A stretch of DNA of 64,000 nucleotides from Octopus vulgaris (Eukaryota), in assembly GCA_951406725.2 (NCBI GenBank), contig OX597833.1:58094001-58158000 (forward strand), given 5' to 3'. The notes beneath the pieces are model-generated. The model was given only the letters and a program-made list of their open reading frames with translations. It was not told the DNA's origin and did no database searches. Positions 10,330 through 63,326 of the stretch are shown here, piece by piece. Every line of letters starts with the position of its first letter. Within the stretch, counting starts at the first letter, position 1. A program made the position numbers and the translations under genes.

Positions 10330-10533
10330 CTACTACTGCTGTCCACAGGAATGTATATAAAGGACAAAAGACAGCCAGTCAACCACAGTTGAAATACTCC
10401 TGTCACAACCTGGGACCTTGAAGACTGCTTTAATGCAAGAAAGTATACTAGTCCCTTAATATTTGATATTCAATATTTCATCTATTCAATAAGATAATCA
10501 ATACTTCATTTCATTTTACTATATATACTATAT

Positions 10534-32958: not shown

Positions 32959-33533
32959 ATATACATAAATAATTTACAAAATAAGGGCAAAAGAAAAATT
33001 CTAATGCTGAAAAAAAGACAAAATTGTCAACCATTATAATTTATGTATCTCGAAACAAACCGATAGAAATTTCTAAAAAAATCCGTTATTACCGTATTGG
33101 TCCCAATTTCGGGGTTAATTCATAAGAATTTTCCCCTCTTCAGCGATAAATACGTGAGATATAAATGAAATACTTATTCATACCCATGGAAAGAGCAAGC
33201 ACTAAGAGGGGAAAATTCTTATGAATTTTTCAGTTAGAGGGCTCTCACTTTCTGTGGTCATTTAAAACCGTCCAAGGGTGGTCATGCACATCTTTACATT
33301 TCCCCAGTCACCCTGCAAAGCCATTAAAAAATCAATAGAAGTGATTTTTTTTGTGAATTTTCTATCCAAAACCCAGTCAAAATGCCCAAAACTTGATACG
33401 CCAATTGAATGCCAGCTAGCTGTATGTAATTGGTCGGAGATTTGGACAGTACTCGTGTGTATGTGTGCACGCACACAGCTGTATTTGCCTGCACTAGCAC
33501 TATGACCCGGCGTTGCCAGGTCATAGTGCTAGT
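32959..33533 (+). mobile_element. Non-autonomous Helitron-like element with terminal hairpin
   Basis: Ends ACTAGCACTATGACCCGGCGTTGCCAGGTCATAGTGCTAGT (15-bp stem, CTAG end), sharing CCCGGCGTTGC with the 13.4-kb element. Confidence 0.45.
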
Positions 33534-33749
33534 TTGAATATAAATCCAGAACGCCTGTCCTCTTAAAAACTAAACTCTTGTAATGTTAACTGTTTCTTCA
33601 AGGAAGAGCAGTAAAATACTTTCAAACTACTCCATTGTCATTTTATGGGATAATTTCCATATGCTATCTTTTATAACATTTCTAATTATATCAATGAAAT
33701 TTTTTTTTGTTTAATTGCTTGTGCAAAGGTTCATTGTTTCTCGATTCGT

Positions 33750-35500
33750 TATTGCCCACTAGGGTTGGGGGTAACATAGAGGGGACAACACATCACATGT
33801 TGGGGGGGACACACAATGACAAATCAAAAAACAAATGTATGACCAAGATGAATGATAACATGGCAACGAAGAAATGGAATGGAACCACTCAGCCCCACTT
33901 CTGGGTGATCCCATTTCTACCCTTTACCACCTTTTGTATCCCATTCCTTCCAGAATGTCTGTCCCATATAGTTCTAGTATTTCCTCGTACATTGAAAATT
34001 CTGCTAATTCCTCTCTGTCCAACTCTACCTCCCACCACCGGAATGGAGCCACTCAGCCCCACTTCTGGGTGATCCCCACCTTTTGTATCCCATTCCTTCC
34101 AGAATATCTGTCCCATATAGTTCTGGTATTACCTCGTACATTGAAAATTCTGCTAGTTCCTCTCTGTCCAACTCTACCTCCCACCACCACTCATATTCAC
34201 TTTTGTTTCACTATTCTCTCCAAATGTTCTTTCATTGGCAGCACAATAGGTGACGCCTAACATTGTCGGAACCACGGGTTCCTATTTCCTTAAAATCATC
34301 CCATTTCTGCCCTTGGCACAAATCCTCATTTTTGAATCATCAATTATCACTACTGCACATTTCTTTTTTGTCTGTGGGGGAGGGAGTTTGAGATTTCTTG
34401 TGTTTCTTTTGTTTTTGTGTCGGAGGGAATGAGTAGGCTTGGTGCCTGTGGGAGAAGGGTGGGGTCTGAGAGCATATGGGTGGGGTGGGTGTTGATTGGG
34501 GTTCAGAGTTCAAATTACTTTTTTCTTTCTGCCAACCACCTTCCATACCTTTTCTATTATCTCTGAAGGTTCTTCTACTTTTTTTGACTGTTCCACTTTT
34601 TTCCTCCAGCAGTGAAGGGCAGGCCACTCTAATGTGGCCGTTTTAGACCACATTTGTAACATCTTGGGACTCTGCCCTCCACCTTGATCCTCATCTCTGC
34701 TTTGTCAAACAAGACCATCTCTGCTACCTGTCGCAAGGTTTCTGCTGATGCCTGCACTGTCATCTCAAGTGTCTTTCCCCTCCACATCTCACATCTGGTT
34801 CCTGTGGCCTACAGCACCATATCCTCCTCACTTCCTTTTGAGGACTGTGGCCACTACCCAGTCCTCATCTATTTCAGATGGAATACCTTCAACTTTAATC
34901 CTAGTTGTCAATCTGCCCATATAAGTGGGCAACAACACCACTTTGTCTTTGCTGCCTGTTTCTTTGCATTTTGTTCTCACCTCCAATGTATCAAATCTTG
35001 TTCCTCTCTTTAGAAAAACTATATTGTGCCACATGGGCCTGAGCACTTCCCTGTTTGGCTTGTGTGTGTTCTCTATTCTGCCTGCCTTTGTAAAAAATGT
35101 TTTGTATGTAATTGTTCTCCTCCTGATACCTTCCAACAGCTCCTTTGACGGGGCCAATTCCACATCATACCTCTCTACAAATTTTTAAAATTTCTAATTC
35201 TCTTGATGTCAATATCCTCTTGTCTTGTTGCTTCTGCGAAGTTTTTCTTTTCCTCTTGGCTTTTCTATCCATTTTTCTTACTGCTTTATGCAGTTCTTCT
35301 GGTGATAATTCAGACCCACTAAGGTCTGAATAAAATACGAATTTCTTCATTGCTAACTCCTCAAATGAAAGAAAGTACAAACAAATTGCTGCAAAGCTGC
35401 ACAAAAAGTGTTTAAAACACTAACTCAAGGACAAAAGGATGTGAACTCTGAAAAATACAGCCAAAATGACTTGTGTACCTTGCAAAACACTAGAAGAGTG
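33750..35500 (-). mobile_element. Decayed ORF1-only (gag-like/CCHC) non-LTR retroelement, Tx1/L1-ORF1-like
   Basis: Broken minus-strand ORFs (35165-35404, 34828-35163, 34340-34627) plus VEGRVPRCYKCGLK/GHIRVACP zinc knuckle at ~34617-34685. No RT follows; a SINE-like 3' tail lies at ~33750-33790. Confidence 0.7.
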
Positions 35501-35754
35501 CTGGTGTTTCTACCAGCTCACTACAATAAATATATATTGAAATCAAACTATATTTGAACCAACGTTGGTCATTATTGTTTTATTTTACTGTACTATTGTG
35601 CATAGATATATATTTTAGCCAACATGAACAAATGTAAATACCTAATGCCAATACAAAATTTTCAAGAACGGAAAGATGTCTGTGACATCATTAGTAGTGT
35701 ATTTTTTATGAAGATGTTACTTATAAACCTAGAAATCTAAGTAACTTCGAATGG

Positions 35755-38700
35755 CATCAGTCACTACATTATAGTTTTGCAGCTGAACTACCAGCCTCCT
35801 GAATACTTGGACAGCATCTTACACACTGCATCATAGTGTTGCTGCTGAACTGCCAGCCTCCTGAATACTTGGACAGCATTAGACACACCACATTATACTT
35901 TTGCTGGTGAACTACCAGCCTCCTGAATACTTGGACAGCATCTTACACACTGCATCATAGTGTTGCTGCTGAACTGCTAGCCTCCTGAATACTTGGACAG
36001 CATCTTACACACCGCATCATACTGTTGCTGCTGAACTGCCAGCCTCCTGAATTCTTGGACAGCATTAGACACACCACATTATACTTTTGCTGGTGAACTA
36101 CCAGCCTCCTGAATACTTGGACAGCATCTTACACACTGCATCATAGTGTTGCTGCTGAACTGCTAGCCTCCTGAATACTTGGACAGCATCTTACACACCG
36201 CATCATACTGTTGCTGCTGAACTGCCAGCCTCCTGACTACTTGGACAGCATTAGACACACCACATTATACTTTTGCTGGTGAACTACCAGCCTCCTGAAT
36301 ACTTGGACAGCATCTAATCCACTACATCATAGTGTTGATGCTGAACTGCCAGCCTCCTGACTACTTGGACAGCATTAGACACACAACATTATACTTTTGC
36401 TAGTGAACTACCAGCCTCCTGAATACTTGGACAGCATCTTACACACATCATAGTGTTGCTGCTGAACTGCCAGCCTCCTGAATACTTGGACAGCATCTAG
36501 ACACACAACATCATACTGTTGCTGGTGAACTGCCAGCCTCCTGAATACTTGGACAGCATCTTACACACCGCATCATACTGTTGCTGGTGAACTACCAGCC
36601 TCCTGAATACTTGGACAGCATCTTCTTGCTGCTGAACTGCCACACTGCATCATACTTTGCTGCTGAACTGCCAGCCTCCTGAATACTTGGATAGCATCAA
36701 ATCCACTACATCATAGTGTTGCTGCTGAACTGCCAGCCTCCTGAATACTTGGATAGCATCAAATCCACTACATCATAGTGTTGCTGCTGAACTGCCAGCC
36801 TCCTGAATCCTTGGATAGCATCAAATCCACTACATCATAGTGTTGCTGCTGAACTGCCAGCCTCCTGAATCCTTGGATAGCATCAAATCCACATTATACA
36901 TCATAGTGTTGCTGCTGAACTGCCAGCATCAAATCCTCATAGAATCCTTGAATCTTGATAGCATCAAATCCACTACATCATAGTGTCTGCTGCTGAACTG
37001 CCAGCCTCCTGAGTGTTCATACTGTTGCTGCTGAACTGCCAGCCTCCTGAATCCTTGGATAGCATCAAATCCACTACATCATAGTGTTGCTGCTGAACTG
37101 CCAGCCTCCTGAATCACTTGGATTGCATAGCATCAAATCCACTACATCATAGTGTTGCTGCTGAACTGCCAGCCTCCTGAATCCTTGGATTGCATCAAAT
37201 CCACCATCAGTGTTGCTGCTGAACTGCCAGCCTCCTGAATCCTTGGATAGCATCAAATCCACTACATCATAGGTTGATGCTGAACTGCCAGCCTCCTGAA
37301 TCCTTGGATAGCATCAAATCCACTACATCATAGTGTTGCTGCTGAACTGCCAGCCTCCTGAATCCTTGGATAGCATCAAATCCACTACATCATAGTGTTG
37401 CTGCTGAACTGCCAGCCTCCTGAATCCTTGGATAGCATCAAATCCACTACATCATAGTGTTGCTGCTGAACTGCCAGCCTCCTGAATCCTTGGATAGCAT
37501 CAAATCCACTACATCATAGTGTTGCTGCTGAACTGCCAGCCTCCTGAATCCTTGGATAGCATCAAATCCACTACATCATACTGTTGCTGCTGAACTGCCA
37601 GCCTCCTGAATCCTTGGATAGCATCAAATCCACTACATCATAGTGTTGCTGCTGAACTGCCAGCCTCCTGAATCCTTGGATAGCATCAAATCCACTACAT
37701 CATAGTGTTGATGCTGAACTGCCAGCCTCCTGAATCCTTGGATAGCATCAAATCCACTACATCATAGTGTTGCTGCTGAACTGCCAGCCTCCTGAATCCT
37801 TGGATAGCATCAAATCCACTACATCATAGTGTTGCTGCTGAACTGCCAGCCTCCTGAATCCTTGGATAGCATCAAATCCACTACATCATAGTGTTGCTGC
37901 TGAACTGCCAGCCTCCTGAATCCTTGGATAGCATCAAATCCACTACATCATAGTGTTGCTGCTGAACTGCCAGCCTCCTGAATCCTTGGATAGCATCAAA
38001 TCCACTACATCATAGTGTTGCTGCTGAACTGCCAGCCTCCTGAATCCTTGGATAGCATCAAATCCACTACATCATAGTGTTGTGCTGAACTGCCAGCCTC
38101 CTGAATCCTTGGATTGCATCAAATCCACTACATCATAGTGTTGCTGCTGAACTGCCAGCCTCCTGAATCCTTGGATAGCATCAAATCCACTACATCATAG
38201 TGTTGCTGCTGAACTGCCAGCCTCCTGAATCCTTGGATAGCATCAAATCCACTACATCATACTGTTGATGCTGAACTGCCAGCCTCCTGAATACTTGGAT
38301 AGCATCAAATCCACTACATCATAGTGTTGATGCTGAACTGCCAGCCTCCTGAATCCTTGGATAGCATCAAATCCACTACATCATAGTGTTGATGCTGAAC
38401 TGTCATCCTCCTGAATCCTTGGATAGCATCAAATCCACTACATCATAGTGTTGATGCTGAACTGCCAGCCTCCTGAATCCTTGGATAGCATCAAATCCAC
38501 CATCATAGTGTTGCTGCTGAACTGCCAGCCTCCTGAATACTTGGATAGCATCAAATCCACTACATCATAGCGTTGATGCTGAACTGCCAGCCTCCTGAAT
38601 ACTTGGATAGCATCAAATCCACTACATCATAGCGTTGATGCTGAACTGCCAGCCTCCTGAATACTTGGATAGCATCAAATCCACTACATCATAGTGTTGC

Positions 38701-41700
38701 TGCTGAACTGCCAGCCTCCTGAATCCTTGGATAGCATCAAATCCACTACATCATAGTGTTGCTGCTGAACTGCCAGCCTCCTGAATCCTTGGATAGCATC
38801 AAATCCACTACATCATAGTGTTGCTGCTGAACTGCCAGCCTCCTGAATCCTTGGATAGCATCAAATCCACTACATCATAGTGTTGCTGCTGAACTGCCAG
38901 CCTCCTGAATCCTTGGATAGCATCAAATCCACTACATCATAGTGTTGCTGCTGAACTGCCAGCCTCCTGAATCCTTGGATAGCATCAAATCCACTACATC
39001 ATAGTGTTGCTGCTGAACTGCCAGCCTCCTGAATCCTTGGATAGCATCAAATCCACTACATCATAGTGTTGCTGCTGAACTGCCAGCCTCCTGAATCCTT
39101 GGATAGCATCAAATCCACCATCATAGTGTTGCTGCTGAACTGCCAGCCTCCTAAATCCTTGGATAGCATCAAATCCACTACATCATAGCGTTGATGCTGA
39201 ACTGCCAGCCTCCTGAATACTTGGATTGCATCAAATCCACTACATCATAGCGTTGATGCTGAACTGCCAGCCTCCTGAATACTTGGATTGCATCAAATCC
39301 ACTACATCATAGCGTTGATGCTGAACTGCCAGCCTCCTGAATCCTTGGATAGCATCAAATCCACTACATCATAGTGTTGATGCTGAACTGCCAGCCTCCT
39401 GAATCCTTGGATAGCATCAAATCCACTACATCATAGTGTTGATGCTGAACTGCCAGCCTCCTGAATACTTGGATAGCATCAAATCCACTACATCATAGCG
39501 TTGCTGCTGAACTGCCAGCCTCCTGAATCCTTGGATAGCATCAAATCCACTACATCATAGTGTTGCTGCTGAACTGCCAGCCTCCTGAATCCTTGGATAG
39601 CATCAAATCCACTACATCATAGTGTTGATGCTGAACTGCCAGCCTCCTGAATACCTTGGATAGCATCAAATCCACTACATCATAGTGTTGATGCTGAACT
39701 GCCAGCCTCCTGAATCCTTGGATAGCATCAAATCCACTACATCATAGTGTTGCTGCTGAACTGCCAGCCTCCTGAATCCTTGGATAGCATCAAATCCACT
39801 ACATCATAGTGTTGATGCTGAACTGCCAGCCTCCTGAATCCTTGGATAGCATCAAATCCACTACATCATAGTGTTGCTGCTGAACTGCCAGCCTCCTGAA
39901 TCCTTGGATAGCATCAAATCCACTACATCATAGTGTTGATGCTGAACTGTCATCCTCCTGAATCCTTGGATAGCATCAAATCCACTACATCATAGTGTTG
40001 CTGCTGAACTGCCAGCCTCCTGAATCCTTGGATAGCATCAAATCCACTACATCATAGTGTTGCTGCTGAACTGCCAGCCTCCTGAATCCTTGGATAGCAT
40101 CAAATCCACTACATCATAGTGTTGCTGCTGAACTGCCAGCCTCCTGAATCCTTGGATAGCATCAAATCCACTACATCATAGCGTTGATGCTGAACTGCCA
40201 GCCTCCTGAATACTTGGATTGCATCAAATCCACTACATCATAGCGTTGATGCTGAACTGCCAGCCTCCTGAATCCTTGGATTGCATCAAATCCACTACAT
40301 CATAGTGTTGATGCTGAACTGCCAGCCTCCTGAATCCTTGGATAGCATCAAATCCACTACATCATAGCGTTGATGCTGAACTGCCAGCCTCCTGAATACT
40401 TGGATTGCATCAAATCCACTACATCATACGTTGATGCTGAACTGCCAGCCTCCTGAATCCTTGGATAGCATCAAATCCACTACATCATAGGTTGATGCTG
40501 AACTGCCAGCCTCCTGAATCTTGGATAGCATCAAATCCACTACATCATAGTGTTGATGCTGAACTGCCAGCCTCCTGAATACTTGGATAGCATCAAATCC
40601 ACTACATCATAGCGTTGATGCTGAACTGCCAGCCTCCTGAATACTTGGATAGCATCAAATCCACTACATCATACTGTTGATGCTGAACTGCCAGCCTCCT
40701 GAATACTTGGATAGCATCAAATCCACTACATCATAGTGTTGCTGCTGAACTGCCAGCCTCCTGAATACTTGGATAGCATCAAATCCACTACATCATAGTG
40801 TTGCTGCTGAACTGCCAGCCTCCTGAATCCTTGGATAGCATCAAATCCACTACATCATAGTGTTGCTGCTGAACTGCCAGCCTCCTGAATACTTGGATAG
40901 CATCAAATCCACTACATCATAGCGTTGATGCTGAACTGCCAGCCTCCTGAATACTTGGACAGCATCAAACACACCGCATCATAGTGTTGCTGCTGAACTG
41001 CCAGCCTCCTGAATACTTGGACAGCATCAAATCCACTACATCATACTGTTGCTGCTGAACTGCCAGCCTCCTGAATACTTGGATAGCATCAAATCCACTA
41101 CATCATAGTGTTGATGCTGAACTGCCAGCCTCCTGAATACTTGGATTGCATCAAATCCACTACATCATAGTGTTGATGCTGAACTGCCAGCCTCCTGAAT
41201 CCTTGGATAGCATCAAATCCACTACATCATAGTGTTGATGCTGAACTGCCAGCCTCCTGAATCCTTGGATAGCATCAAATCCACTACATCATAGTGTTGA
41301 TGCTGAACTGCCAGCCTCCTGAATCCTTGGACAGCATCTTATCCACTACATCATACTGTTGATGCTGAACTGCCAGCCTCCTGAATCCTTGGATAGCATC
41401 AAATCCACTACATCATAGTGTTGATGCTGAACTGCCAGCCTCCTGAATCCTTGGATAGCATCAAATCCACTACATCATAGTGTTGATGCTGAACTGCCAG
41501 CCTCCTGAATCCTTGGATAGCATCAAATCCACTACATCATAGTGTTGATGCTGAACTGCCAGCCTCCTGAATACTTGGATAGCATCAAATCCACTACATC
41601 ATAGTGTTGATGCTGAACTGCCAGCCTCCTGAATCCTTGGATAGCATCAAATCCACTACATCATAGCGTTGATGCTGAACTGCCAGCCTCCTGAATACTT

Positions 41701-42904
41701 GGATAGCATCAAATCCACTACATCATAGTGTTGATGCTGAACTGCCAGCCTCCTGAATCCTTGGATAGCATCAAATCCACTACATCATAGTGTTGCTGCT
41801 GAACTGCCAGCCTCCTGAATCCTTGGATAGCATCAAATCCACTACATCATAGTGTTGATGCTGAACTGCCAGCCTCCTGAATCCTTGGATAGCATCAAAT
41901 CCACTACATCATAGTGTTGATGCTGAACTGCCAGCCTCCTGAATCCTTGGATAGCATCAAATCCACTACATCATAGTGTTGCTGCTGAACTGCCAGCCTC
42001 CTGAATCCTTGGATAGCATCAAATCCACTACATCATAGTGTTGATGCTGAACTGCCAGCCTCCTGAATCCTTGGATAGCATCAAATCCACTACATCATAG
42101 TGTTGATGCTGAACTGCCAGCCTCCTGAATCCTTGGATAGCATCAAATCCACTACATCATAGTGTTGCTGCTGAACTGCCAGCCTCCTGAATACTTGGAT
42201 AGCATCAAATCCACTACATCATAGTGTTGCTGCTGAACTGCCAGCCTCCTGAATCCTTGGACAGCATCAAACCCACTACATCATAGTGTTGCTTCTGAAC
42301 TGCCAGCCTCTTAAATCCTTGGATAGCATCAAATCCACTACATCATAGTGTTGATGCTGAACTGCCAGCCTCCTGAATCCTTGGATAGCATCAAATCCAC
42401 TACATCATAGTGTTGATGCTGAACTGCCAGCCTCCTGAATACTTGGATAGCATCAAATCCACTACATCATAGTGTTGATGCTGAACTGCCAGCCTCCTGA
42501 ATCCTTGGATAGCATCAAATCCACTACATCATAGTGTTGATGCTGAACTGCCAGCCTCCTGAATCCTTGGATAGCATCAAATCCACTACATCATAGTGTT
42601 GCTGCTGAACTGCCAGCCTCCTGAATCCTTGGATAGCATCAAATCCACTACATCATAGTGTTGATGCTGAACTGCCAGCCTCCTGAATCCTTGGATAGCA
42701 TCAAATCCACTACATCATAGTGTTGCTGCTGAACTGCCAGCCTCCTGAATCCTTGGATAGCATCAAATCCACTACATCATAGTGTTGATGCTGAACTGCC
42801 AGCCTCCTGAATCCTTGGATAGCATCAAACCCACTACATCATAGTGTTGATGCTGAACTGCCAGCCTCCTGAATCCTTGGATAGCATCAAATCCACTACA
42901 TCAT
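35755..42904. repeat. 62-bp tandem satellite, about 7.1 kb (~115 units), running into the assembly gap
   Basis: Unit CACTACATCATAGTGTTG(C/A)TGCTGAACTGCCAGCCTCCTGAAT(C/A)CTTGGATAGCATCAAATC; period measured at 37321/37383/37445. Confidence 0.97.
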
Positions 42905-43004
42905 NNNNNNNNNNNNNNNNNNNNNNNNNNNNNNNNNNNNNNNNNNNNNNNNNNNNNNNNNNNNNNNNNNNNNNNNNNNNNNNNNNNNNNNNNNNNNNNN
43001 NNNN
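42905..43004. other. Assembly gap (100 N)
   Basis: Run of 100 N between the two satellites; the true distance and copy numbers are unknown. Confidence 1.
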
Positions 43005-46000
43005 TTCCAATCTCACCAAATGCAGACCATTCTTTTTATGGATGGCTTGGTGTGAGTATTGCCTCATTGATTGAGTCTATGCATTTGTTGAACATAACCC
43101 AGCGGAGAATACAGAGCTTTATCTTCAAGTGTCTTGTAATGGATTATGCTTTTCCAATCTCACCAAATGCAGACCATTCTTTTTATGGATGGCTTGGTGT
43201 GAGTATTGCCTCATTGATTGAGTCTATGCATTTGTTGAACATAACCCAGCGGAGAATACAGAGCTTTATCTTCAAGTGTCTTGTAATGGATTAAGCTTTT
43301 CCAATCTCACCAAATGCAGACCATTCTTTTTATGGATGGCTTGGTGTGAGTATTGCCTCATTGATTGAGTCTATGCATTTGTTGAACATAACCCAGCGGA
43401 GAATACAGAGCTTTATCTTCAAGTGTCTTGTAATGGATTATGCTTTTCCAATCTCACCAAATGCAGACCATTCTTTTTATGGATGGCTTGGTGTGAGTAT
43501 TGCCTCATTGATTGAGTCTATGCATTTGTTGAACATAACCCAGCGGAGAATACAGAGCTTTATCTTCAAGTGTCTTGTAATGGATTATGCTTTTCCAATC
43601 TCACCAAATGCAGACCATTCTTTTTATGGATGGCTTGGTGTGAGTATTGCCTCATTGATTGAGTCTATGCATTTGTTGAACATAACCCAGCGGAGAATAC
43701 AGAGCTTTATCTTCAAGTGTCTTGTAATGGATTATGCTTTTCCAATCTCACCAAATGCAGACCATTCTTTTTATGGATGGCTTGGTGTGAGTATTGCCTC
43801 ATTGATTGAGTCTATGCATTTGTTGAACATAACCCAGCGGAGAATACAGAGCTTTATCTTCAAGTGTCTTGTAATGGATTATGCTTTTCCAATCTCACCA
43901 AATGCAGACCATTCTTTTTATGGATGGCTTGGTGTGAGTATTGCCTCATTGATTGAGTCTATGCATTTGTTGAACATAACCCAGCGGAGAATACAGAGCT
44001 TTATCTTCAAGTGTCTTGTAATGGATTAAGCTTTTCCAATCTCACCAAATGCAGACCATTCTTTTTATGGATGGCTTGGTGTGAGTATTGCCTCATTGAT
44101 TGAGTCTATGCATTTGTTGAACATAACCCAGCGGAGAATACAGAGCTTTATCTTCAAGTGTCTTGTAATGGATTAAGCTTTTCCAATCTCACCAAATGCA
44201 GACCATTCTTTTTATGGATGGCTTGGTGTGAGTATTGCCTCATTGATTGAGTCTATGCATTTGTTGAACATAACCCAGCGGAGAATACAGAGCTTTATCT
44301 TCAAGTGTCTTGTAATGGATTATGCTTTTCCAATCTCACCAAATGCAGACCATTCTTTTTATGGATGGCTTGGTGTGAGTATTGCCTCATTGATTGAGTC
44401 TATGCATTTGTTGAACATAACCCAGCGGAGAATACAGAGCTTTATCTTCAAGTGTCTTGTAATGGATTAAGCTTTTCCAATCTCACCAAATGCAGACCAT
44501 TCTTTTTATGGATGGCTTGGTGTGAGTATTGCCTCATTGATTGAGTCTATGCATTTGTTGAACATAACCCAGCGGAGAATACAGAGCTTTATCTTCAAGT
44601 GTCTTGTAATGGATTAAGCTTTTCCAATCTCACCAAATGCAGACCATTCTTTTTATGGATGGCTTGGTGTGAGTATTGCCTCATTGATTGAGTCTATGCA
44701 TTTGTTGAACATAACCCAGCGGAGAATACAGAGCTTTATCTTCAAGTGTCTTGTAATGGATTATGCTTTTCCAATCTCACCAAATGCAGACCATTCTTTT
44801 TATGGATGGCTTGGTGTGAGTATTGCCTCATTGATTGAGTCTATGCATTTGTTGAACATAACCCAGCGGAGAATACAGAGCTTTATCTTCAAGTGTCTTG
44901 TAATGGATTAAGCTTTTCCAATCTCACCAAATGCAGACCATTCTTTTTATGGATGGCTTGGTGTGAGTATTGCCTCATTGATTGAGTCTATGCATTTGTT
45001 GAACATAACCCAGCGGAGAATACAGAGCTTTATCTTCAAGTGTCTTGTAATGGATTAAGCTTTTCCAATCTCACCAAATGCAGACCATTCTTTTTATGGA
45101 TGGCTTGGTGTGAGTATTGCCTCATTGATTGAGTCTATGCATTTGTTGAACATAACCCAGCGGAGAATACAGAGCTTTATCTTCAAGTGTCTTGTAATGG
45201 ATTAAGCTTTTCCAATCTCACCAAATGCAGACCATTCTTTTTATGGATGGCTTGGTGTGAGTATTGCCTCATTGATTGAGTCTATGCATTTGTTGAACAT
45301 AACCCAGCGGAGAATACAGAGCTTTATCTTCAAGTGTCTTGTAATGGATTAAGCTTTTCCAATCTCACCAAATGCAGACCATTCTTTTTATGGATGGCTT
45401 GGTGTGAGTATTGCCTCATTGATTGAGTCTATGCATTTGTTGAACATAACCCAGCGGAGAATACAGAGTTTTATCTTCAAGTGTCTTGTAATGGATTATG
45501 CTTTTCCAATCTCACCAAATGCAGACCATTCTTTTTATGGATGGCTTGGTGTGAGTATTGCCTCATTGATTGAGTCTATGCATTTGTTGAACATAACCCA
45601 GCGGAGAATACAGAGCTTTATCTTCAAGTGTCTTGTAATGGATTAAGCTTTTCCAATCTCACCAAATGCAGACCATTCTTTTTATGGATGGCTTGGTGTG
45701 AGTATTGCCTCATTGATTGAGTCTATGCATTTGTTGAACATAACCCAGCGGAGAATACAGAGCTTTATCTTCAAGTGTCTTGTAATGGATTATGCTTTTC
45801 CAATCTCACCAAATGCAGACCATTCTTTTTATGGATGGCTTGGTGTGAGTATTGCCTCATTGATTGAGTCTATGCATTTGTTGAACATAACCCAGCGGAG
45901 AATACAGAGCTTTATCTTCAAGTGTCTTGTAATGGATTAAGCTTTTCCAATCTCACCAAATGCAGACCATTCTTTTTATGGATGGCTTGGTGTGAGTATT

Positions 46001-47307
46001 GCCTCATTGATTGAGTCTATGCATTTGTTGAACATAACCCAGCGGAGAATACAGAGCTTTATCTTCAAGTGTCTTGTAATGGATTATGCTTTTCCAATCT
46101 CACCAAATGCAGACCATTCTTTTTATGGATGGCTTGGTGTGAGTATTGCCTCATTGATTGAGTCTATGCATTTGTTGAACATAACCCAGCCGAGAATACA
46201 GAGCTTTATCTTCAAGTGTCTTGTAATGGATTAAGCTTTTCCAATCTCACCAAATGCAGACCATTCTTTTTATGGATGGCTTGGTGTGAGTATTGCCTCA
46301 TTGATTGAGTCTATGCATTTGTTGAACATAACCCAGCGGAGAATACAGAGCTTTATCTTCAAGTGTCTTGTAATGGATTAAGCTTTTCCAATCTCACCAA
46401 ATGCAGACCATTCTTTTTATGGATGGCTTGGTGTGAGTATTGCCTCATTGATTGAGTCTATGCATTTGTTGAACATAACCCAGCGGAGAATACAGAGCTT
46501 TATCTTCAAGTGTCTTGTAATGGATTAAGCTTTTCCAATCTCACCAAATGCAGACCATTCTTTTTATGGATGGCTTGGTGTGAGTATTGCCTCATTGATT
46601 GAGTCTATGCATTTGTTGAACATAACCCAGCGGAGAATACAGAGCTTTATCTTCAAGTGTCTTGTAATGGATTAAGCTTTTCCAATCTCACCAAATGCAG
46701 ACCATTCTTTTTATGGATGGCTTGGTGTGAGTATTGCCTCATTGATTGAGTCTATGCATTTGTTGAACATAACCCAATGGAGAATACAGAGCTTTATCTT
46801 CAAGTGTCTTGTAATGGATTATGCTTTTCCAATCTCACCAAATGCAGACCATTCTTTTTATGGATGGCTTGGTGTGAGTATTGCCTCATTGATTGAGTCT
46901 ATGCATTTGTTGAACATAACCCAGCGGAGAATACAGAGCTTTATCTTCAAGCGTCTTGTAATGGATTAAGCTTTTCCAATCTCACCAAATGCAGACCATT
47001 CTTTTTATGGATGGCTTGGTGTGAGTATTGCCTCATTGATTGAGTCTATGCATTTGTTGAACATAACCCAGCGGAGAATACAGAGCTTTATCTTCAAGTG
47101 TCTTGTAATGGATTATGCTTTTCCAATCTCACCAAATGCAGACCATTCTTTTTATGGATGGCTTGGTGTGAGTATTGCCTCATTGATTGAGTCTATGCAT
47201 TTGTTGAACATAACCCAATGGAGAATACAGAGCTTTATCTTAAAGTGTCTTGTAATGGATTAAGCTTTTCCAATCCCACCAAATGCAGACCAATGTTTTT
47301 ATGGATG
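43005..47307. repeat. 147-bp tandem satellite (~29 near-identical units), mariner-derived
   Basis: Period 147 (ORF starts recur at multiples of 147). Units differ mainly at GGATTA(T/A)GCTT. The last unit runs directly into the mariner remnant. Confidence 0.97.
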
Positions 47308-47510
47308 CAGCTCCAGCTTGGTTCAAGCTGTTGCTTATTTGTTGTTGGAACTTGGCCATTTTTTTTTTCTGTTTTATATTGATGTGATTACTATTTTTCA
47401 TTATTATCAGTGGTGATGCTTTAGAGATGAGTCCGTGAAGCTGGTATCAAGCGAGCAAACTGATGTAGTACTGGTGTTTGATTTTTTTGTTCAAAGTATG
47501 AAGTACCCAG
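47270..47510 (-). pseudogene. Decayed mariner (DD34D-type) transposase fragment
   Basis: Minus-strand translation with stops and frameshifts: WVLHTL (WVPHEL-like), ITTDNNEK (IVTGDEKW-like), INIKQKKKW, ELHP*K.LVCIWWDWKSLIHY. Confidence 0.8.
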
Positions 47511-49016
47511 GTGGGTACTTTATCAAGGTATGTTATGTAACCCTAGAGCAACCACTCAGATCAGACTTGTCACCATCTGGTGTTTTTGAGGGCTTTTCTT
47601 TTCTTATTTTAAACAGCAGGGTATGATTTTAGGAAGATCTAGCTAGGCCGCTCTCTCTTTCATTTTTTTCTTTTTCTTTCTCGTAATGGTCCAGTATAGG
47701 CCCTTTTGCACACGTGCACATCCTGCAAATGAAAAAAAACCCAGCTACCCTCACTCTCTCAGTACAAGGTTATCTTGAATTTCTTTTTGATAGGATTCCA
47801 GGTGTTTCCTTTCCATATTGTCTTTTGAATTCTGGCTCGGGAATGGGCCCCCAAGTCTCATTGTCTGTGACTATGGTGTCTAATAAAAATGGAACCCTTC
47901 GCCTTCATTGTAGCAGTCTAGTATTGTCAGATCTCCTCGTGATTGACTGTACTCATTGTGTTAAGTGAATCTCTTTCAATTTGCGGAACCCAAATGTCAA
48001 GGTTCTTAATGAATCCAAGACACTGATTTTCGCTTGTCTTGATACATTTTACCTCTCTGCAATCTCTTGCACAGTTATGACAATCGGATTCCATTATGGC
48101 TTTGATTCAGTCATCAACCTCAGTTGGTCATCTATGGTCATTTTTGAGTGAAAAATCTCCAGAACAGAATTTTTAAAACCATTTCTGACATGTACGTTCT
48201 GTTAAGCAATCAACACCCTAAACTTCGCATATCTCTTTGTAAGCCTCAACATTCTTCTTCCCTTTATGGAAATGAAAAAGCAAAATATGGCGAAAATGTT
48301 AGTTTCTGGACTAACAGCCGTAAACAAAATTTGATGCAATTTACCTGTACTATAGCCCAAACTCTACAGCCCTCGTGTTTGGCTTTGAGGTGTTGCTCCA
48401 AGGCTGATCTCGCTGTCAAAACTTGGGATGCGGAGCACGACCTTAACGCATTTCCAAAGTCCTTGACTGGATCCCTTTCTACTCGAGTCAATTAGACTTA
48501 TTCAAAAGCTAAGTTAAGATAGGACTAAAGTCGAATAGCTCATTTGAGGGCAAACAACCACCTGTTATTCAAAACGGGGCTGTTTAATGCCCTCATGACT
48601 AACTCCTTAATGTGACTACGGTATGCTTCACGAGACAAAATAGACAGGGATCTGACTATTGGAAGCTAAACAAGACTGTGTACCTTATCTAAGTTCATCC
48701 TACATGTCACTAACGTGTGATCAGTGTAGGAGACCTGGACAACTAGACTTATCTCTTGTACAAAATATTCTATCTAAATAAGACTTGAACAACCTGTTGC
48801 CATTACTCCAGGTCAACACTGGGATGCTCGGGTGATCAAATCTGTAATGATCTACCAGCTGAAACTGCTAAAGCAGATCGGTGAGGCATAGGTGTTTCTT
48901 AACTGAGCCAACACAATCCTGGTATGCATCCAGGATAGCATTAAAATCTAACACCACTAATGTCTTCTATGTTACCAGAAAATTTTCTAGGCATCAATAG
49001 AAATCGGCCTCTGTTT

Positions 49017-50150
49017 TTAGGACTTGGCACATAAACACCAACGAACCTGAAAGGTAGTGGGTTGGGGACACATTTCTTTTTCCCCGTTTCCGAGAGATAA
49101 TTTGGAATTCCACCTCCTGTTCAACAACCTCCATGTCGTAGCCAGGAGGGGAAATTTTTGTCCACGTTCACTGCATTTTCTTCTGGTTTCTTTGGCATTT
49201 CCTGTTCCTTCACTGGTTTCTTTCCTTTGGCTCCCTCCCCCTTTTTTTTTTTGCTTCTTGTCAAGGTGGGTGGAGGGCCTCCTTGTTAGAAGGGCTGCAT
49301 TCTGCACAAATGTGGCCCTTCTGCCCACACTTGAAATGACATGGCCTCCTTTTCAGGGCACCTTTTTAGGACAACGTTCTCATCTATTATCATTCTATCT
49401 GGAATCTACTCTGATTCTTCCAGTACCGCCTGGATTAATATTTCAATCGTCTGCCCCAGTCAGTTTTTTGGGGACAGAGCGAGTAATCTGTAATAGATTT
49501 TGTCTTCCCTTAAATAACATAGGACTACCACCACCCAGGTGGCGTCGATTTCGCGTGGTACTTTCTGTATCTTAATCCTGAACTTTATATGTCCCAGATA
49601 AGGCAGTTGTACCACTTCTTTGGTTTTTAGTGTGAGTACTGAGTACACCCTTGCCTTTTCGGCTGTTTTAAACCTCACCTCCACTGAGGTGAACTTTCCG
49701 CCTTGGGCCACATAAGCCACATCCTTCCAGACTGGCCTGAGACATTTCTCTATACTCTACTTTTGGTATATTTGAGATTTTTTTTTTTTTTTGTCTCCGG
49801 ATTGAATGTCTTGTATATGATAGATTTGTATAGATTTGTTCTTGGTTTGAATTGTGATCTCACTTGGAGGGACGATTCACACATCTCTCCCATCCAATGA
49901 TAGCACACAGCAGAAGGACTGATATTCTGAGTGCATCATTTCCAGATTTTGTGGACTATAACTGCTGCTGCCAAATTTTTTACTCCATTATTTCTTCAAC
50001 TTCAAGAGCCATTTGCTCCTTTATTGTTTCCATGTCAGGATTTGCCATTTTTAAAATTTTTTTTAAACCATTTCTTCTCAATAAATTTCTTTTTTTTTTT
50101 CTTTAATAATTCTCACAAATGATAACTTTCATTCAAATAAGTTGCAGTTT
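49017..50150 (-). mobile_element. Second decayed ORF1(CCHC) retroelement remnant
   Basis: FTSVEVRF...VVQLPYLGHIKFRIKIQKVPREIDATWVV aligns with FDTLEVR...VVLLPTYMGRLTTRIKVEGIPSEIDEDWVV of the 33.7-35.5 kb element; knuckle CHFKCGQKGHICAEC at ~49295-49340. Confidence 0.65.
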
Positions 50151-54269: not shown

Positions 54270-54850
54270 TTTCTTTATTTATTTACCAATAAAGGTATAC
54301 ATAGAGGGGACACTAATATTTTTACAAATGGATGGGTTACAGTGAAATGGAAAAAAATCAAATGTTGAATATAAAGAACGAACTAGTTATAATTAAAGCT
54401 TTGCAATTATAATGTTCCAGGTTCTTTTTCCTAAATTAACCTGCCGGTTTTTATCTCCTTTGGTTTTTTTTTCCGCTTTTTACCTTTTGGCCTTGACCAG
54501 CTGTACTAGCATGGTCCTATTCATCCTCAGCTTCCTTACTACAGACATCCATCTTTCCAGACACAGTTTGCATTTGGCCCCTTTTCTCCTGTGGTGTAGG
54601 GCAGTTCGCTCTTATGCGGCCTTTCTGGCCACATTTAAAACAGCGAGGAATCCTGCCCTCCACCCACACTTTCAGGATCAAATCCCCCAATCCACAGGTT
54701 CTCGGGAAGCACTTCGGGGACCCCCACCTCAGCTTGGATGGTAATTTCGATTTGTCCCTTCCATCACTTCCGCTTGAATTACCTTCACCTCTTTGAGGGT
54801 CAATGTCATCAGCATCCAGGCTGATTGTGGATTGGCATCAGCGTTGAGTA
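54270..54850 (-). mobile_element. Third ORF1(CCHC) remnant, 3' part with tail
   Basis: VEGRIPRCFKCGQKGRIRANC at ~54601-54664; tail ACATAGAGGGGACA plus a TTTATT run at ~54271-54312. Confidence 0.6.
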
Positions 54851-57645
54851 ATTTAGTTGCTTCTATGTATGTTTATAAAAGTGACCATAGCAACCTCCTG
54901 CCGACCTTGAACTTCCTTCTAGGGTCAGTAAGATAAAGCAGCAGATAAGTACCAAGGTTGACCCGTTCCCTCTAAAATTCATGGCTGTGTGCCAAAGTTA
55001 GCTTAATATCGTTAGCAATAGTAGTTTATCAATTAAATACTTTAAGGCGGCGAGCTGGCAGAAACGTTAGCACGCCGGGTGAAATGCTTAGCGGTATTTC
55101 GCCTGTCGTTACGTTCTGAGTTCAAATTCCGCCAAGGTCAACTTAGCCTTTCATCCTTTCGGGGTCGATAAATTAAGTACCAGTTTCGCACTGGAGTCGA
55201 TGTAATCGACTTAATCCCTTTGTCTGTCCTTGTTTGTCCCCTCTATGTTTAGCCCCTTGTGGGTAGTAAAAAAAAAAATAGGTATTTCGCCTGTCGTTAC
55301 GTTCTGAGTTCAAATTCCGCCAAGGTCGACTTTGCCTTTCATCCTTTCGGGGTCGATAAATTAAGTACCAGTTTCGCACTGGAGTCGATGTAATCGACTT
55401 AATCCCTTTGTCTGTCCTTGTTTGTCCCCTCTATGTTTAGCCCCTTGTGGGCAGTAAACAAAAAATATATATAAATATTTTACAGCCTGTTATGTAATCT
55501 ATGACTGGCTTAACTAGGCATAAGGAAGATTTGTTTTGGTTGTACCATGCTTCCCGCTTGCCAAGTTCAACACTAGCCTTTAACATGTATTTTTGACTAG
55601 TATGATTTGGCATTTGTGTTCTGTCTAGATAGATAAGTTGCTTTAGTATTGACTGCTGTAAAAAGCACCTTATACACTCTGTAAAGTGGTTAGTACTAGG
55701 AAAGGCATCAAGTTGTGGAAATCAACGAAGCAGAACTCGTTATAGTCCTTAGGTTTGCCAGCTCGTCAAACTGTCCAACCCATACCAGCATTAAAATGTT
55801 GTAAAATGAGGATGTTTCTATGAGCTTGTCCCCTTTTTCTGCTATGTTCACCTGTGGTAGAATGTGCACTGACATGAGATAGTTACCTGCATAATATGAA
55901 TCTTGTCATTAGGCATACTTCATGTTTGTTTCATGAGTTACACTCTTGCGTGGCTTAGGAGCTGTTGGGAGAGGGTATTAATTTTATTGTAAGGCGGCGA
56001 GCTGGCAGAAACGTTAGCACGCCGGGCGAAATGCTTAGCGGTATTTCGTCTGCCACTATGTTCTGAGTTCAAATTCTGCCGAGGTCGACTTTGCCGTTCA
56101 TCCTTTCGGGGGTCGATAAATTAAGTACCAGTTACGCACTGGGGTCGTCGATGTAATCGACTTAATCCATTTGTCTGTCCTTGTTTGTCCCCTCTGTGTT
56201 TAGCCCTCTTGGGTAATGAAGAAATAGGTATTAATTTTAGCTTATATTTTCCTAGATTGATTACTTTTACTGTAGCTAAGGGGCTCAGTCTACCCTTGCA
56301 AAAATCTATTTAACCCCATAGATGGGACCCTGACTGATACTACTGTTTTGTGTCAAAATGGACCTGTGAGAAATGGTAGCTAAGAGGTGACTCCACACTC
56401 CCCACAACTTCCAAACTGGACCCTTACCACTAGATGCTTCACCATATCCTATATACTTTTATTGGTATTGAATACCTTTTCATTATACTATAACAGAAAT
56501 TCTAATCTCCAGAATAAACCTTGTGATGACACCCCTTACTGTTTGATATCTGAGTATGTCACAACCCTTTGGTTAAAAGCCACTGGTTGTCTATTTCTGG
56601 ATGGCCCTACCTGGGCCAGATTGATTTGGTTTGAGCTTAGTAGTATCTGCTTGACTGCAGATATGTCACAACCCTTTGGTTAAAAGCCACTGGTTGTCTA
56701 TTTCTGGATGGCCCTACCTGGGCCAGATTGATTTGGTTTAAGCTTAGTAGTATGTGCTTGACTGCACTTTAGGTGTGTGTCATGGTATAGTTTCAGTAAC
56801 TAATATGTTGGCTTTTTACAAAAATCTCCATTTTTAGGTAGGGTATTTGAGAACATACTTTGGTACCTCTTATGCTCTCCGTCACCAACCTCACTAATAA
56901 ATCTGTTCCTCTTGTCACACTGTAACTTCTCTCAATTCCGTGTCTAAAGGTGTCACTTTCTCTCCTCTCCATGTCCTTTGATGATGGAGGCTCTTGTGAA
57001 GGTGGCCATCACTAGTGCTGTTAAAAAAAAAAATGAATGCACCCAGTATACTCTGTAAAATGGTTGGCAACTAAAGCAAGCAACAGTTTGAGAGGACCCT
57101 TTAGTGTAGGGTATGGCCAAGACAACCTTCAAAAGTACTGGTGCTATGGTAAACTGTACCCAGTACACACTGTAAAGTGGTTAAGAGCATCCAGCTCTTA
57201 AAACAAAGCAAAAACTGAGAAATTATGTTTGGGATTATTCTAGCCATTATGTTAGGTCATAAAGTATAAAATTTGTAGAAAAGAAAATTTCTTCCTTGTA
57301 TTTATAAAAACATTAGCAAACTTTTTTTATTCATCAAAGTATGCACCCATACTGTCAATACACTTTTGCCATTTCAGTGGTAGCCTTGTCCAGCCAAGAA
57401 CTCTAAAAGCCTGGCAATCTAGATGCAATAAAATCTTGGAAGACCTGTTTCACAGCATCATTTGAGTTAAATGTTTTCCTATGGGCGTAGGAGTGGCTGT
57501 GTGGTAAGTAGCTTGCTTACCAACCACATGGTTCCGGGTTCAGTCCCACTGCGTGGCATCTTGGGCAAGTGTCTTCTGTTATAGCCTCGGGCCGACCAAT
57601 GCCTTGTGAGTGGATTTGGTAGACGGAAACTGAAAGAAGCCTGTC

Positions 57646-60483: not shown

Positions 60484-62027
60484 CTGTGATAGGAAAGAAT
60501 TGAAGCTGAAATGTATCGGATCGTACATGTTTAAGGGTTGAGACCCAAGGCCAGACAATTACCTGGTCACTTTTTTTAAAAGTTGATAAAACATTGATAT
60601 ATTAATAGCTTGTCCCTTTCTCTGCAAAGGCTGTAATGATTTGTCCTTGTGAACAAAATATTTGAATGCTTGCTCTCAAATTTTATGGCTGGGTTGTTTA
60701 GGTTGGAGACTTCCATTATCAGATCTAGGATCAAAAGTATTCTATCTCTGACCCGATCTTTTTTAGAAATATGTCAAGGACTACATCATACAATATCTTG
60801 GTTTTAGAGATATTAGCATATCATTATAGGAAGTGTTGGTCTCTATATCCAGCAGAACAAGCTGCTGCTTTAGTGGGTAAAAAAAAAAAGGCAAAGAAAA
60901 AAGGTGGTGAGCTGGCAGAAGCGTTAGCACGCTGGGCGAAATGCTTAGCGGTATTTCGTCTGCCGTTATGTTCTGAGTTCAAATTCCGCCAAGGTCGACT
61001 TTGCCTTTCATCCTTTCGGGGGTCGATAAATTAAGTACCAGTTACGCACTGGGATCGATGTAATCGACTTAATCCCTTTGTCCTTGTTTGTTTCCTCTAT
61101 GTTTAGCCTCTTGTGGGCAATAAAGAAATAAGAAACATTGGCACGCCGGGCGAAATGCTTAGTGTTACGTTCTGAGTTCAAATTCCGCCGAGGTCGACTT
61201 TGCCTTTCATCCTTTCGGGGTTGATATAATCGACTTAATCCGTTTGTCCTTGTTTGTCCTCTCTGTGTTTGGCCCCTTGTGGGTAGTAAAGAAATAGGTA
61301 CTATCATTTGTAGTTTGCACATGTCTGCCCCAAACATACATGTAGTATGGTGGCCGGAGCAATGGTTTGTCCTTGCATTTAATATTTCATACTGGACTTG
61401 TTGCTGCACCATCATGTAGTTATGCCATGTAGATGCCGTGGCTACTCGTCAAGTCTCGGTCTAATATCTATGAAATGTATCTTAAGCCTGTCAGCTTTGC
61501 TTGAACAGATCTATGGCACAGAAGTGACAGACACTTCAAACTGACCGTCTCAAATGATTGCAGGACAATGGTTTATTTATATCTTGTATTTGTAAAGAGT
61601 AATGTTACTAGTTAGAGGTTTCCGCAAGAGTAATTACTGGTACATTACAGCATCCATATGCTTTGAAAGACAATGGTATGCACTACTATCTAATCAAGAT
61701 TTGAGTCATGCCATCTGCTGTGACAGGTTTTATCTCGTATCTTGTGGCCATTTTTGCAGCTAAAAAAAAAAATTTTCAAATTGTATTTGGCCTTGACATT
61801 GTTTCTGTCACATGGGCTCTCCTGACCTCTGTTCCCCCACCCATCCACCTACTAAACTTTGACTGCACCTTAGCAATGTCTCTTTATGTTGCTCTGATCT
61901 GCAACCAAGTCGGTCTTCATGTTCACTGGCAAGGATGACCCCTGTCAAGTGTTGTTGTTGTTGGCCACTACAGATGGCTAAAAAAGTAGTGAAGTATACA
62001 TTGAATGCTTGTTACTATGTTCTCATT

Positions 62028-63236
62028 CTTAATTTTATCAATCAATTTAGCCTTCCATATCTTAGGCATTGATTAAAATAGTCCCAGTGAAGTATTGGAG
62101 TCAGTCATTGACTTGCCTTCTTACCTCAAAATTTTTGGTCTTAATTTCATCAATCAATTTAGCCTTCCATATCTTAGGCATTGATTAAAATAGTCCCAGT
62201 GAAGTATTGGAGTCAGTCATTGACTTGCCTTCTTACCTCAAAATTTTTGGTCTTAATTTTATCAATCAATTTAGCCTTCCATATCTTAGGCGTTGATTAA
62301 AATAGTCCCAGTGAAGTATTGGAGTCAGTCATTGACTTGCCTTCTTACCTCAAAATTTTTGGTCTTAATTTTATCAATCAATTTAGCCTTCCATATCTTA
62401 GGCGTTGATTAAAATAGTCCCAGTGAAGTATTGGAGTCAGTCATTGACTTGCCTTCTTACCTCAAAATTTTTGGTCTTAATTTTATTAATCAATTTAGCC
62501 TTCCATATCTTAGGCGTTGATTAAAATAGTCCCAGTGAAGTATTGGAGTCAGTCATTGACTTGCCTTCTTACCTCAAAATTTTTGGTCTTAATTTTATCA
62601 ATCAGTTTAGCCTTCCATATCTTAGGCATTGATTAAAATAGTCCCAGTGAAGTATTGGAGTCAGTCATTGACTTGCCTTCTTACCTCAAAATTTTTGGTC
62701 TTAATTTTATCAATCAATTTAGCCTTCCATATCTTAGGCGTTGATTAAAATAGTCCCAGTGAAGTATTGGAGTCAGTCATTGACTTGCCTTCTTACCTCA
62801 AAATTTTTGGTCTTAATTTTATCAATCAATTTAGCCTTCCATATCTTAGGCGTTGATTAAAATAATCCCAGTGAAGTATTGGAGTCAGTCATTGACTTGC
62901 CTTCTTACCTCAAAATTTTTGGTCTTAATTTTATCAATCAATTTAGCCTTCCATATCTTAGGCGTTGATTAAAATAGTCCCAGTGAAGTATTGGAGTCAG
63001 TCATTGACTTGCCTTCTTACCTCAAAATGTTTGGTCTTAATTTTATCAATCAGTTTAGCCTTCCATATCTTAGGCATTGATTAAAATAGTCCCAGTGAAG
63101 TATTGGAGTCAGTCATTGACTTGCCTTCTTACCTCAAAATTTTTGGTCTTAATTTTATCAATCAGTTTAGCCTTCCATATCTTAGGCATTGATTAAAATA
63201 GTCCCAGTGAAGTATTGGAGTCAGTCATTGACTTAC
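62028..63236. repeat. 112-bp tandem repeat (~11 units)
   Basis: ATCAATTTAG at 62041, 62153, 62265...; the unit resembles a decayed family-C core. Confidence 0.92.
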
Positions 63237-63326
63237 CTTCTTTCCCACCATGGGAAAAGTTTTGTTGCAGTGTTAATTTAAATTCGGCTATGGTGGATCG
63301 AATCCTCTTCATGCTAGCAAGATCCA
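63237..63326 (-). CDS. Probable penultimate exon of an unidentified minus-strand gene
   Basis: Minus strand TTTGTAG acceptor, 90 nt open, phase 1/1: (V)DLASMKRIRSTIAEFKLTLQQNFSHGGKE; perfect AAG|GTAAGT donor. Confidence 0.6.

What the first reader, a model, noticed from the sequence alone, without database searches (positions are those of the whole stretch)
43005..47510. 147-bp satellite amplified from a mariner transposase catalytic-domain fragment, still attached to its parent copy
Seen: the minus strand of the unit reads HP*K/MVCIW*DWKSIIHYKTLEDKALYSPLGYVQQMHRLN/EAI. The array ends directly in unique sequence continuing upstream in the same transposase (WVLHTL, ITTDNNEK, INIKQKKKW, ELHP*K.LVCIWWDWKS), with a TTTTTATGGATG microhomology at the unit junction. 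Known: mariner transposases carry WVPHEL, IVTGDEKW and LHPKKVMLCVWWD..IHYELL...Y.QQL.RL..AI motifs. Inference: an already decayed transposase fragment (its lesions are shared by the units) was recently amplified into a highly homogeneous array. The unit equals the nucleosome core length, so this may be a nascent chromatin-positioning satellite.
Basis: partly seen in the sequence, partly recalled or inferred. Interest (0 to 1): 0.8.

Follow-up and report, generated by a model that had tools for sequence, protein, structure and literature searches.

The report
Small repeat array from dead transposon
About 30 near-identical head-to-tail copies of a 147-base scrap of a broken mariner transposon gene sit attached to the rest of that gene; the array is real but small, likely arose by an ordinary local duplication that later expanded, and likely matches the nucleosome core length by coincidence.

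Summary
Observation confirmed: 43005-47307 is a 29.3 x 147-bp array, 99% alike, cut on the left by a 100-N gap. It runs straight into a decayed mariner transposase (Mos1 E=2e-5; 18 of 18 library hits carry PF01359). It is no assembly artefact: the 147-bp go-back joint stands in 4 of 4 runs laid. But it is small: junction depth over single-copy depth is about 34-35 in two samples of organism A and about 4-6 in organisms B and C. So it is a roughly 5-kb, likely single-locus tandem repeat, founded before A split from B/C and recently expanded or homogenised in A. Corrections: lesions are only partly shared (each side has a stop the other lacks), the unit holds no catalytic aspartate, and the 12-mer is just the unit's end, not a shown microhomology. 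The length 147 is explained by 47 codons plus small indels already in the terminal copy. There is no 10-bp periodicity, and neighbouring tandem periods run from 61 to 260. Verdict: a neat but ordinary transposon-derived tandem repeat; chromatin positioning is not supported.

The parts
43005..47307 (.). Tandem array, 29.3 copies of a 147-bp unit; on the minus strand each unit is the His-Pro (LHPKK motif) to Lys (KRP motif) stretch of a mariner transposase, lying between catalytic Asp1 and Asp2
   Evidence: P0010 residues 184-230; D1 153, D2 245, D3 280
47161..47307 (-). Terminal (parent-side) copy; 4 fixed differences from all 28 inner units, mean 6.5 differences (4.4%) against 0.87 (0.6%) among inner units
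47308..47530 (-). Unique remainder of the parent mariner transposase (degenerate WVPHEL-like linker, degenerate Asp1 region, TKLEL), broken by stops and frameshifts; most of it at single-copy depth (47361-47510)
42905..43004 (.). 100-N assembly gap; hides the far end of the array and whatever followed in the parent
35762..42904 (.). Unrelated 62-bp array (114 copies) on the other side of the gap; true adjacency unproven
47785..48322 (-). A second, separate mariner relic of a high-copy family (HTH_48 E=4.7e-19), same orientation; repeats residues ~112-180 that the parent also has, with no DNA match to the parent flank

Best explanation
This is a small tandem array (29.3 copies assembled, an estimated 34 or so in all) of a 147-bp piece from the middle of a broken mariner transposase gene, still joined to the upstream part of that gene, which likely arose by one local duplication and likely grew by unequal exchange or slippage, with no function of its own. 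Steps: (1, shown) the mariner copy was already broken, because a stop, a 1-nt loss and two micro-duplications are in the terminal copy and the unit consensus alike. (2, inferred) A single tandem duplication joined one base after the Lys of the KRP motif back to the His of the LHPKK motif, probably by replication slippage or end-joining; 46 whole codons + 2 + 4 + 2 + 1 bases give 147. (3, joint shown, timing inferred) This happened before organism A split from B and C, which carry the same joint at about 4-6 copies. (4, inferred) In A the inner units were expanded and homogenised recently, while the edge copy, shielded by unique flank, drifted apart. No transposase activity is needed at any step.
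For: The array and collinear parent are seen directly. Mariner identity. The unit is in register with P0010 residues 184-230 (47 codons); the WWD-to-KRP spacing is 37 residues in 7 of 23 relatives with a WWD motif (no KRP within 50 residues in the other 16) and 39 here, matching the +6 nt of the two micro-duplications. The joint 47307->47161 'goes back 147' is in 4 of 4 runs (4 samples, 4 studies), depth 2337.8, 596.4, 221.9 and 42.5 against single-copy contigs of 65-75, 12-21, 53-59 and 4-10. Ratios: 31-36, 28-50, 3.8-4.2 and 4.4-10.1. Flank divergence of A from B/C is 1.8%; terminal against inner units 2.7% fixed and 4.4% mean; private changes 0.07%. The window is rich in local tandem duplications: 14 periods from 61 to 260 bp, 1 of 14 in 140-155; 7 of the 14 units have long matches to dispersed repeats elsewhere in the window; a 112-bp x 10.9 array at 98% matches the dispersed SINE-like repeat weakly (12.9 bits against at most 0.1 in 200 shuffles). 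The two-stage model (a few copies, then unequal exchange) is reviewed in PMC12628747 (section 4, part 1 read).
Against: Depth ratios come from contig mean depths, which the tool warns are crude, and X1 may be the sample the window came from. The far breakpoint was not seen, so the joining mechanism is inferred. A large ancestral array that shrank in B/C cannot be excluded. Pfam scores of the locus itself are below the curated cut-off, and the word-index search found no hit among 31 candidates. A survey of 325 genomes says centromeric satellite monomers tend toward about 147 bp and can arise from transposon sub-sequences (10.64898/2026.09.17.752431, passages), so the length is not out of range for satellites.
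Confidence: 0.85

Rival explanations
1. A nascent chromatin-positioning or centromere-seeding satellite: the 147-bp unit expanded in organism A because it phases nucleosomes.
For: The length equals the core particle; satellite monomers are enriched at 100-200 bp (128 of 263 families) and tend toward about 147 bp (passages); the copy estimate is 6-8 times higher in A than in B/C; a second, larger array lies across the gap.
Against: No 10-bp periodicity for four dinucleotide sets (P=0.23, 0.61, 0.18, 0.87); only two short T-tracts; best CENP-B-box core match 5 of 9. Nucleosome spacing needs a 10-70 bp linker (PMC4675708 passage), and even S. pombe has a repeat of 154 bp (PMC4081033 passage). The length was fixed at birth (terminal copy also 147, no indels). 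About 5 kb in all. Arrays of 62 and 112 bp expanded in the same window.
Confidence: 0.05
2. Assembly artefact, or the collapsed edge of a much larger satellite block.
For: The array ends at a 100-N gap and units are almost identical.
Against: The joint is in 4 of 4 runs from 4 studies. Contigs of X1 and X2 break 44 bases from the joint, at the A/T site (47263) that splits the assembled inner units 16:12. The depth ratio of about 34 is close to the 29.3 copies assembled, which argues against a large collapsed block.
Confidence: 0.04
3. Transposition-linked amplification: rolling-circle copying or tandem insertion of a non-autonomous element, as for Bari1 clusters or MITE-borne repeats such as miDNA4.
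For: Such routes are described for Tc1/mariner elements (PMC9659126 passages; PMC12628747 section 4); other mariner relics lie nearby.
Against: The unit is an internal coding stretch with no terminal repeat. No candidate terminal inverted repeat in 47161-49000. No copy of the unit elsewhere in the window. The parent flank is at single-copy depth.
Confidence: 0.04
4. A coding repeat read from the plus strand (49 codons per unit; the A/T site toggles Tyr/stop; 244-aa open stretch at 43295-44029).
For: The unit length is a multiple of three and one plus frame is open in T-type units.
Against: 16 of 28 inner units and the terminal copy carry the stop allele. A stop-free frame arises in 19% of shuffles, and a frame with at most one stop in 69%. 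No Pfam hit for plus frames.
Confidence: 0.02

Closest known systems
Transposon-derived tandem repeats and minisatellites (7,276 in the human genome; PMC3389668 section 3.1 read; PMC9659126 passages)
   Same: The unit is a sub-sequence of a transposable element, duplicated in place, with the rest of the element as flank; PMC3389668 (passage) also finds only part of an array in outgroup genomes.
   Different: The cases read come mostly from Alu, LTR and L1 retroelements; here the source is the catalytic-domain coding region of a mariner DNA transposon, and the unit is longer.
Satellites from coding parts of LINEs (PROsat and Pvc 20 from ORF2; HinfI from CR1; table rows in PMC9659126) and from LTR-retrotransposon arrays in Lathyrus (PMC7004042, abstract only)
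   Same: Element-internal or coding sequence turned into head-to-tail monomers; short arrays that occasionally expand.
   Different: Those are described as satellite families; this one is about 34 copies, likely at one locus.
Tc1/mariner-linked tandem repeats: miDNA4 MITE of Xenopus, Bari1 clusters of Drosophila, Mboumar within Messor satellite (passages)
   Same: Tc1/mariner superfamily sequence associated with tandem arrays.
   Different: Those are repeats carried inside MITEs, whole-element clusters or insertions into a satellite; none of these is an array of an internal transposase-coding piece still joined to its parent.
Nucleosome-length centromeric satellites (10.64898/2026.09.17.752431, PMC8122249, PMC4675708; passages)
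   Same: Monomer within the 100-200 bp range; high homogeneity; some such satellites derive from transposon sub-sequences.
   Different: Far lower abundance, no 10-bp periodicity, no sign of higher-order structure (runs test on the A/T site, P=0.86/0.24), no chromatin data.

Membership tests
mariner (Tc1/mariner) transposase relic | Sequence similarity to mariner catalytic domain (PF01359, Mos1) | tested here: met
   Mos1 E=2e-5; 18 of 18 hits carry PF01359; the locus's own Pfam score of 19.1 bits, E=0.0012, is below the cut-off of 24
mariner (Tc1/mariner) transposase relic | Motif order and spacing: WVPHEL-like linker, Asp1 region, LHPKK, WWD, KRP | tested here: met
   Collinear with P0008 residues 112-224 and P0010 residues 184-230
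mariner (Tc1/mariner) transposase relic | Complete DD34D catalytic triad and open reading frame | tested here: not met
   Stops and frameshifts; the unit lies between Asp1 and Asp2; no Asp2/Asp3 region found in 33500-35800 or elsewhere near. A relic, not an active element.
mariner (Tc1/mariner) transposase relic | Terminal inverted repeats and TA target duplication | tested here: inconclusive
   No candidate pair in 47161-49000; the other end is behind the gap
transposon-derived tandem repeat (VNTR/minisatellite type) | Head-to-tail units homologous to part of a transposable element | tested here: met
transposon-derived tandem repeat (VNTR/minisatellite type) | Array continuous with the parent element at its locus | tested here: met
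   contig 47246-47555 bridges array end and flank in 4 of 4 runs
transposon-derived tandem repeat (VNTR/minisatellite type) | Copy number differs between genomes | tested here: met
   About 34, 35, 4 and 6 by depth ratio; an estimate, differing between organism labels; variation within organism A not shown
classical satellite DNA | High abundance in long arrays | tested here: not met
   About 34 units, about 5 kb per haploid genome by depth ratio; relatives under 82% identity would not be counted
classical satellite DNA | Heterochromatic or centromeric location | not testable with these tools
   No genome held, no chromatin data
nucleosome-phasing satellite | Monomer of nucleosomal length | tested here: inconclusive
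   147 bp is within the surveyed range but leaves no linker; 1 of 14 window periods falls in 140-155
nucleosome-phasing satellite | About 10-bp periodic AA/TT/TA signal or phased A-tracts | tested here: not met
   P=0.18-0.87 against 1000 dinucleotide shuffles each
nucleosome-phasing satellite | Phased nucleosomes or CENP-A binding in vivo | not testable with these tools
   Needs MNase-seq or ChIP

The most novel reading that the evidence does not exclude
A satellite caught at the seed stage: a mariner transposase-coding piece that went from about 4 copies in sister taxa to about 34 in organism A because its 147-bp period favours nucleosome packing, beside a larger 62-bp array, and on its way to a heterochromatic or centromeric block. 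With the parent attached and low-copy sister alleles available, the role of monomer length in satellite birth could be tested directly.
Probability: 0.06. Interest if true: 0.6.

Novelty: new member of a known kind. Interest (0 to 1): 0.24.

Why it matters
As found, it is a clean small example of a known process: a dead transposon piece turning into a tandem array. Its modest value is that parent, edge copy, homogenised core and low-copy alleles in related organisms are all in view, so the order of events can be read (decay, one duplication, later expansion), and it could serve as a taxon marker. Two paper searches listed no array built from a mariner transposase-coding stretch, but the library lacks most subscription journals, and I recall (not seen here) a frog tandem repeat from a Tc1-like element. 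It would matter more only if chromatin data showed the 147-bp period to be under selection.

Tried and rejected
No whole genome is held, so no genome-wide search for the unit was possible; read depth was used instead. The word-index protein search with the parent frame found nothing at E<=0.001 among 31 candidates; the full HMMER search did. Rfam: 0 matches in the window. Single-strand folding of the unit is unremarkable (z=-0.78). A bacterial promoter/terminator scan found 0 sites and is not suited to an animal genome. The downstream half of the parent was not found left of the 62-bp array (33500-35800); a C-terminal mariner scrap at 57330-57492 has no shown link to it. The 62-bp unit has no Pfam hit in 6 frames and no match to the 147-bp unit or to dispersed repeats. 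The idea that parent and upstream mariner relic are one element was rejected: they overlap in residues ~112-180, share no DNA match and differ in copy depth. 4 of the 20 holder runs were laid. Earlier scan findings: none. PMC12054243 passages were not relevant. From recall of the dispersed SINE-like repeat I suspect an octopod mollusc; this was not tested, and three paper searches with that word gave nothing on its satellites. Supplements of the bioRxiv survey (its satellite table) were not seen and could hold a comparable family.

Full report
The observation. Tandem Repeats Finder gives 43005-47307, period 147, 29.3 copies, 99% matches and no indels. In the register ending at 47307 there are 29 full units. 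The 28 inner ones fall into 6 sequences (14 and 10 copies of the two commonest) and differ by 0.87 bases on average (0.6%), mostly through one A/T site split 16:12. The terminal copy (47161-47307) differs from them by 6.5 bases on average (4.4%), four of the differences being fixed. Only 3 private changes occur in 28 x 147 bases (0.07%).

The source. On the minus strand the terminal copy and the unique flank to about 47530 read, across three frames, as a decayed mariner transposase. Pfam gives PF01359 at E=0.0012 for copy plus flank and E=0.038 for a unit, both under the curated cut-off. The PDB search gives Mos1 at E=2e-5. A full HMMER search gives 18 hits, best E=1.3e-7, and 18 of 18 carry PF01359. 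A word-index search found none. Against the full-length relative P0010 the unit spans residues 184-230, from the His of LHPKK to the Lys of KRP, between Asp1 (153) and Asp2 (245). It is catalytic-domain sequence but holds no catalytic residue. A second mariner relic of a high-copy family lies upstream at about 47785-48322 and is a separate element.

Why 147. The span is 47 codons in relatives. Reading the unit directly, it has 46 whole codons, one codon short of a base, a 4-nt and a 2-nt micro-duplication and one further base: 138+2+4+2+1 = 147. The WWD-to-KRP distance is 37 residues in 7 of 23 relatives with a WWD motif (the other 16 show no KRP within 50 residues) and 39 here, as the +6 nt predicts. 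Both micro-duplications are in the terminal copy too. The lesions are not all shared: units carry a Trp>stop at 47276 that the terminal copy lacks, and the terminal copy carries a Glu>stop at 47242 that units lack. The 12-mer is simply the unit's own end. To be a microhomology it would have to stand at the far breakpoint as well, where relatives encode Arg-Pro; that breakpoint is hidden by the gap, so microhomology is not shown.

Is it real, and how big? Twenty public runs from 10 studies hold part of 47161-48600; four were laid. The joint 47307->47161 'goes back 147' is in 4 of 4: X1 and X2 (organism A, two samples and studies; X1 may be the window's own source), X5 (organism B) and X6 (organism C). 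A contig 47246-47555 bridges array end and flank in all four. Junction-contig depth over three single-copy flank contigs gives 31-36 (X1), 28-50 (X2), 3.8-4.2 (X5) and 4.4-10.1 (X6). These are estimates from contig mean depths. They fit the 29.3 assembled copies and imply about 5 kb in organism A, most or all at this locus, and under about 1 kb in B and C. Junction contigs of X1 and X2 end 44 bases from the joint, at the A/T site, which supports the assembled variant structure (inference). Flanks of B and C differ from the window by 20 of 1139 and 20 of 1083 bases (1.8%, gaps not counted). The founding duplication therefore predates that split (inference), while the very low private variation says the inner units of A share a much younger ancestor.

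Mechanism. Shown: broken parent, collinear attachment, same joint in three organism labels, diverged edge copy, homogeneous core. Inferred: one local duplication by slippage or end-joining, then expansion and homogenisation by unequal exchange, which spares the copy next to unique DNA (from general knowledge of tandem arrays). This is the two-stage model in PMC12628747 (section 4, part 1 read). The window shows the background rate is high. Fourteen tandem periods of 61-260 bp occur, 1 of 14 in 140-155. Seven of the 14 units have long matches to dispersed repeats in the window. A 112-bp array of 10.9 copies at 98% matches the dispersed SINE-like repeat weakly, and a 62-bp array of 114 copies lies across the gap.

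The nucleosome idea. For it: a survey of 325 genomes reports monomers enriched at 100-200 bp (128 of 263 families), tending toward about 147 bp, with some centromeric arrays built from transposon sub-sequences (10.64898/2026.09.17.752431, passages only, supplements not seen). Against it: no 10-bp periodicity for four dinucleotide sets (P=0.18-0.87), two short T-tracts, CENP-B core match 5 of 9, and no higher-order pattern at the A/T site. Real spacing needs a linker of 10-70 bp (PMC4675708 passage), and S. pombe, with a repeat of 154 bp, still leaves 7 bp (PMC4081033 passage). The length was not tuned after birth, and the array is tiny. I put this at about 5%.

Comparison and verdict. It works like, and meets the tested features of, a transposon-derived tandem repeat, a class with thousands of human members (PMC3389668 section 3.1) and many listed cases (PMC9659126 passages; PMC7004042 abstract). 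It fails the abundance test for a classical satellite. Searches listed no array from a mariner transposase-coding stretch, a small twist on a known kind, and the library is incomplete.

Noticed in passing
window 35762-42904: 62-bp array, 114 copies, diverged and with an alternating variant pattern at its left (flank) end and homogeneous toward the gap; larger than the 147-bp array; origin not found (no Pfam hit, no dispersed match). Two different arrays meet at one 100-N gap.
   Followed up: partly
window 62027-63242: 112-bp array, 10.9 copies, 98% alike, both ends in view; the unit matches the dispersed SINE-like repeat weakly (12.9 bits). A good internal control of non-nucleosomal length.
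   Followed up: partly
window 47785-48322 (minus): Second mariner relic of a high-copy family (summed depth several hundred times single-copy at its peak; 57-70% identical to database transposases), some 250-450 bp upstream of the parent in the same orientation.
   Followed up: partly
window 57330-57492 (minus): Small C-terminal mariner scrap (tblastn E=0.002 with P0008; no Pfam hit).
   Followed up: partly
window 43295-44029 (plus): The A/T site toggles Tyr/stop in a plus-strand frame; a run of T-type units gives a 244-aa open stretch, within chance.
   Followed up: yes
window 10498-11853 (plus): LINE-like reverse transcriptase relic (RVT_1 E=8.5e-24).
   Followed up: no
window 46708-46854: One inner unit, three units from the edge, shares the terminal copy's two-base variant (terminal 47218-47219), suggesting exchange between edge and core copies.
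   Followed up: no
window 5465-60137: Many two- to three-copy tandem duplications of 61-260 bp, over half of them of dispersed repeats: the genome seems prone to local duplication.
   Followed up: partly
window 48700-49900 and 54517-54837 (minus): Broken frames with Cys/His knuckle-like motifs resembling retroelement ORF1 (by recall; no Pfam hit).
   Followed up: no
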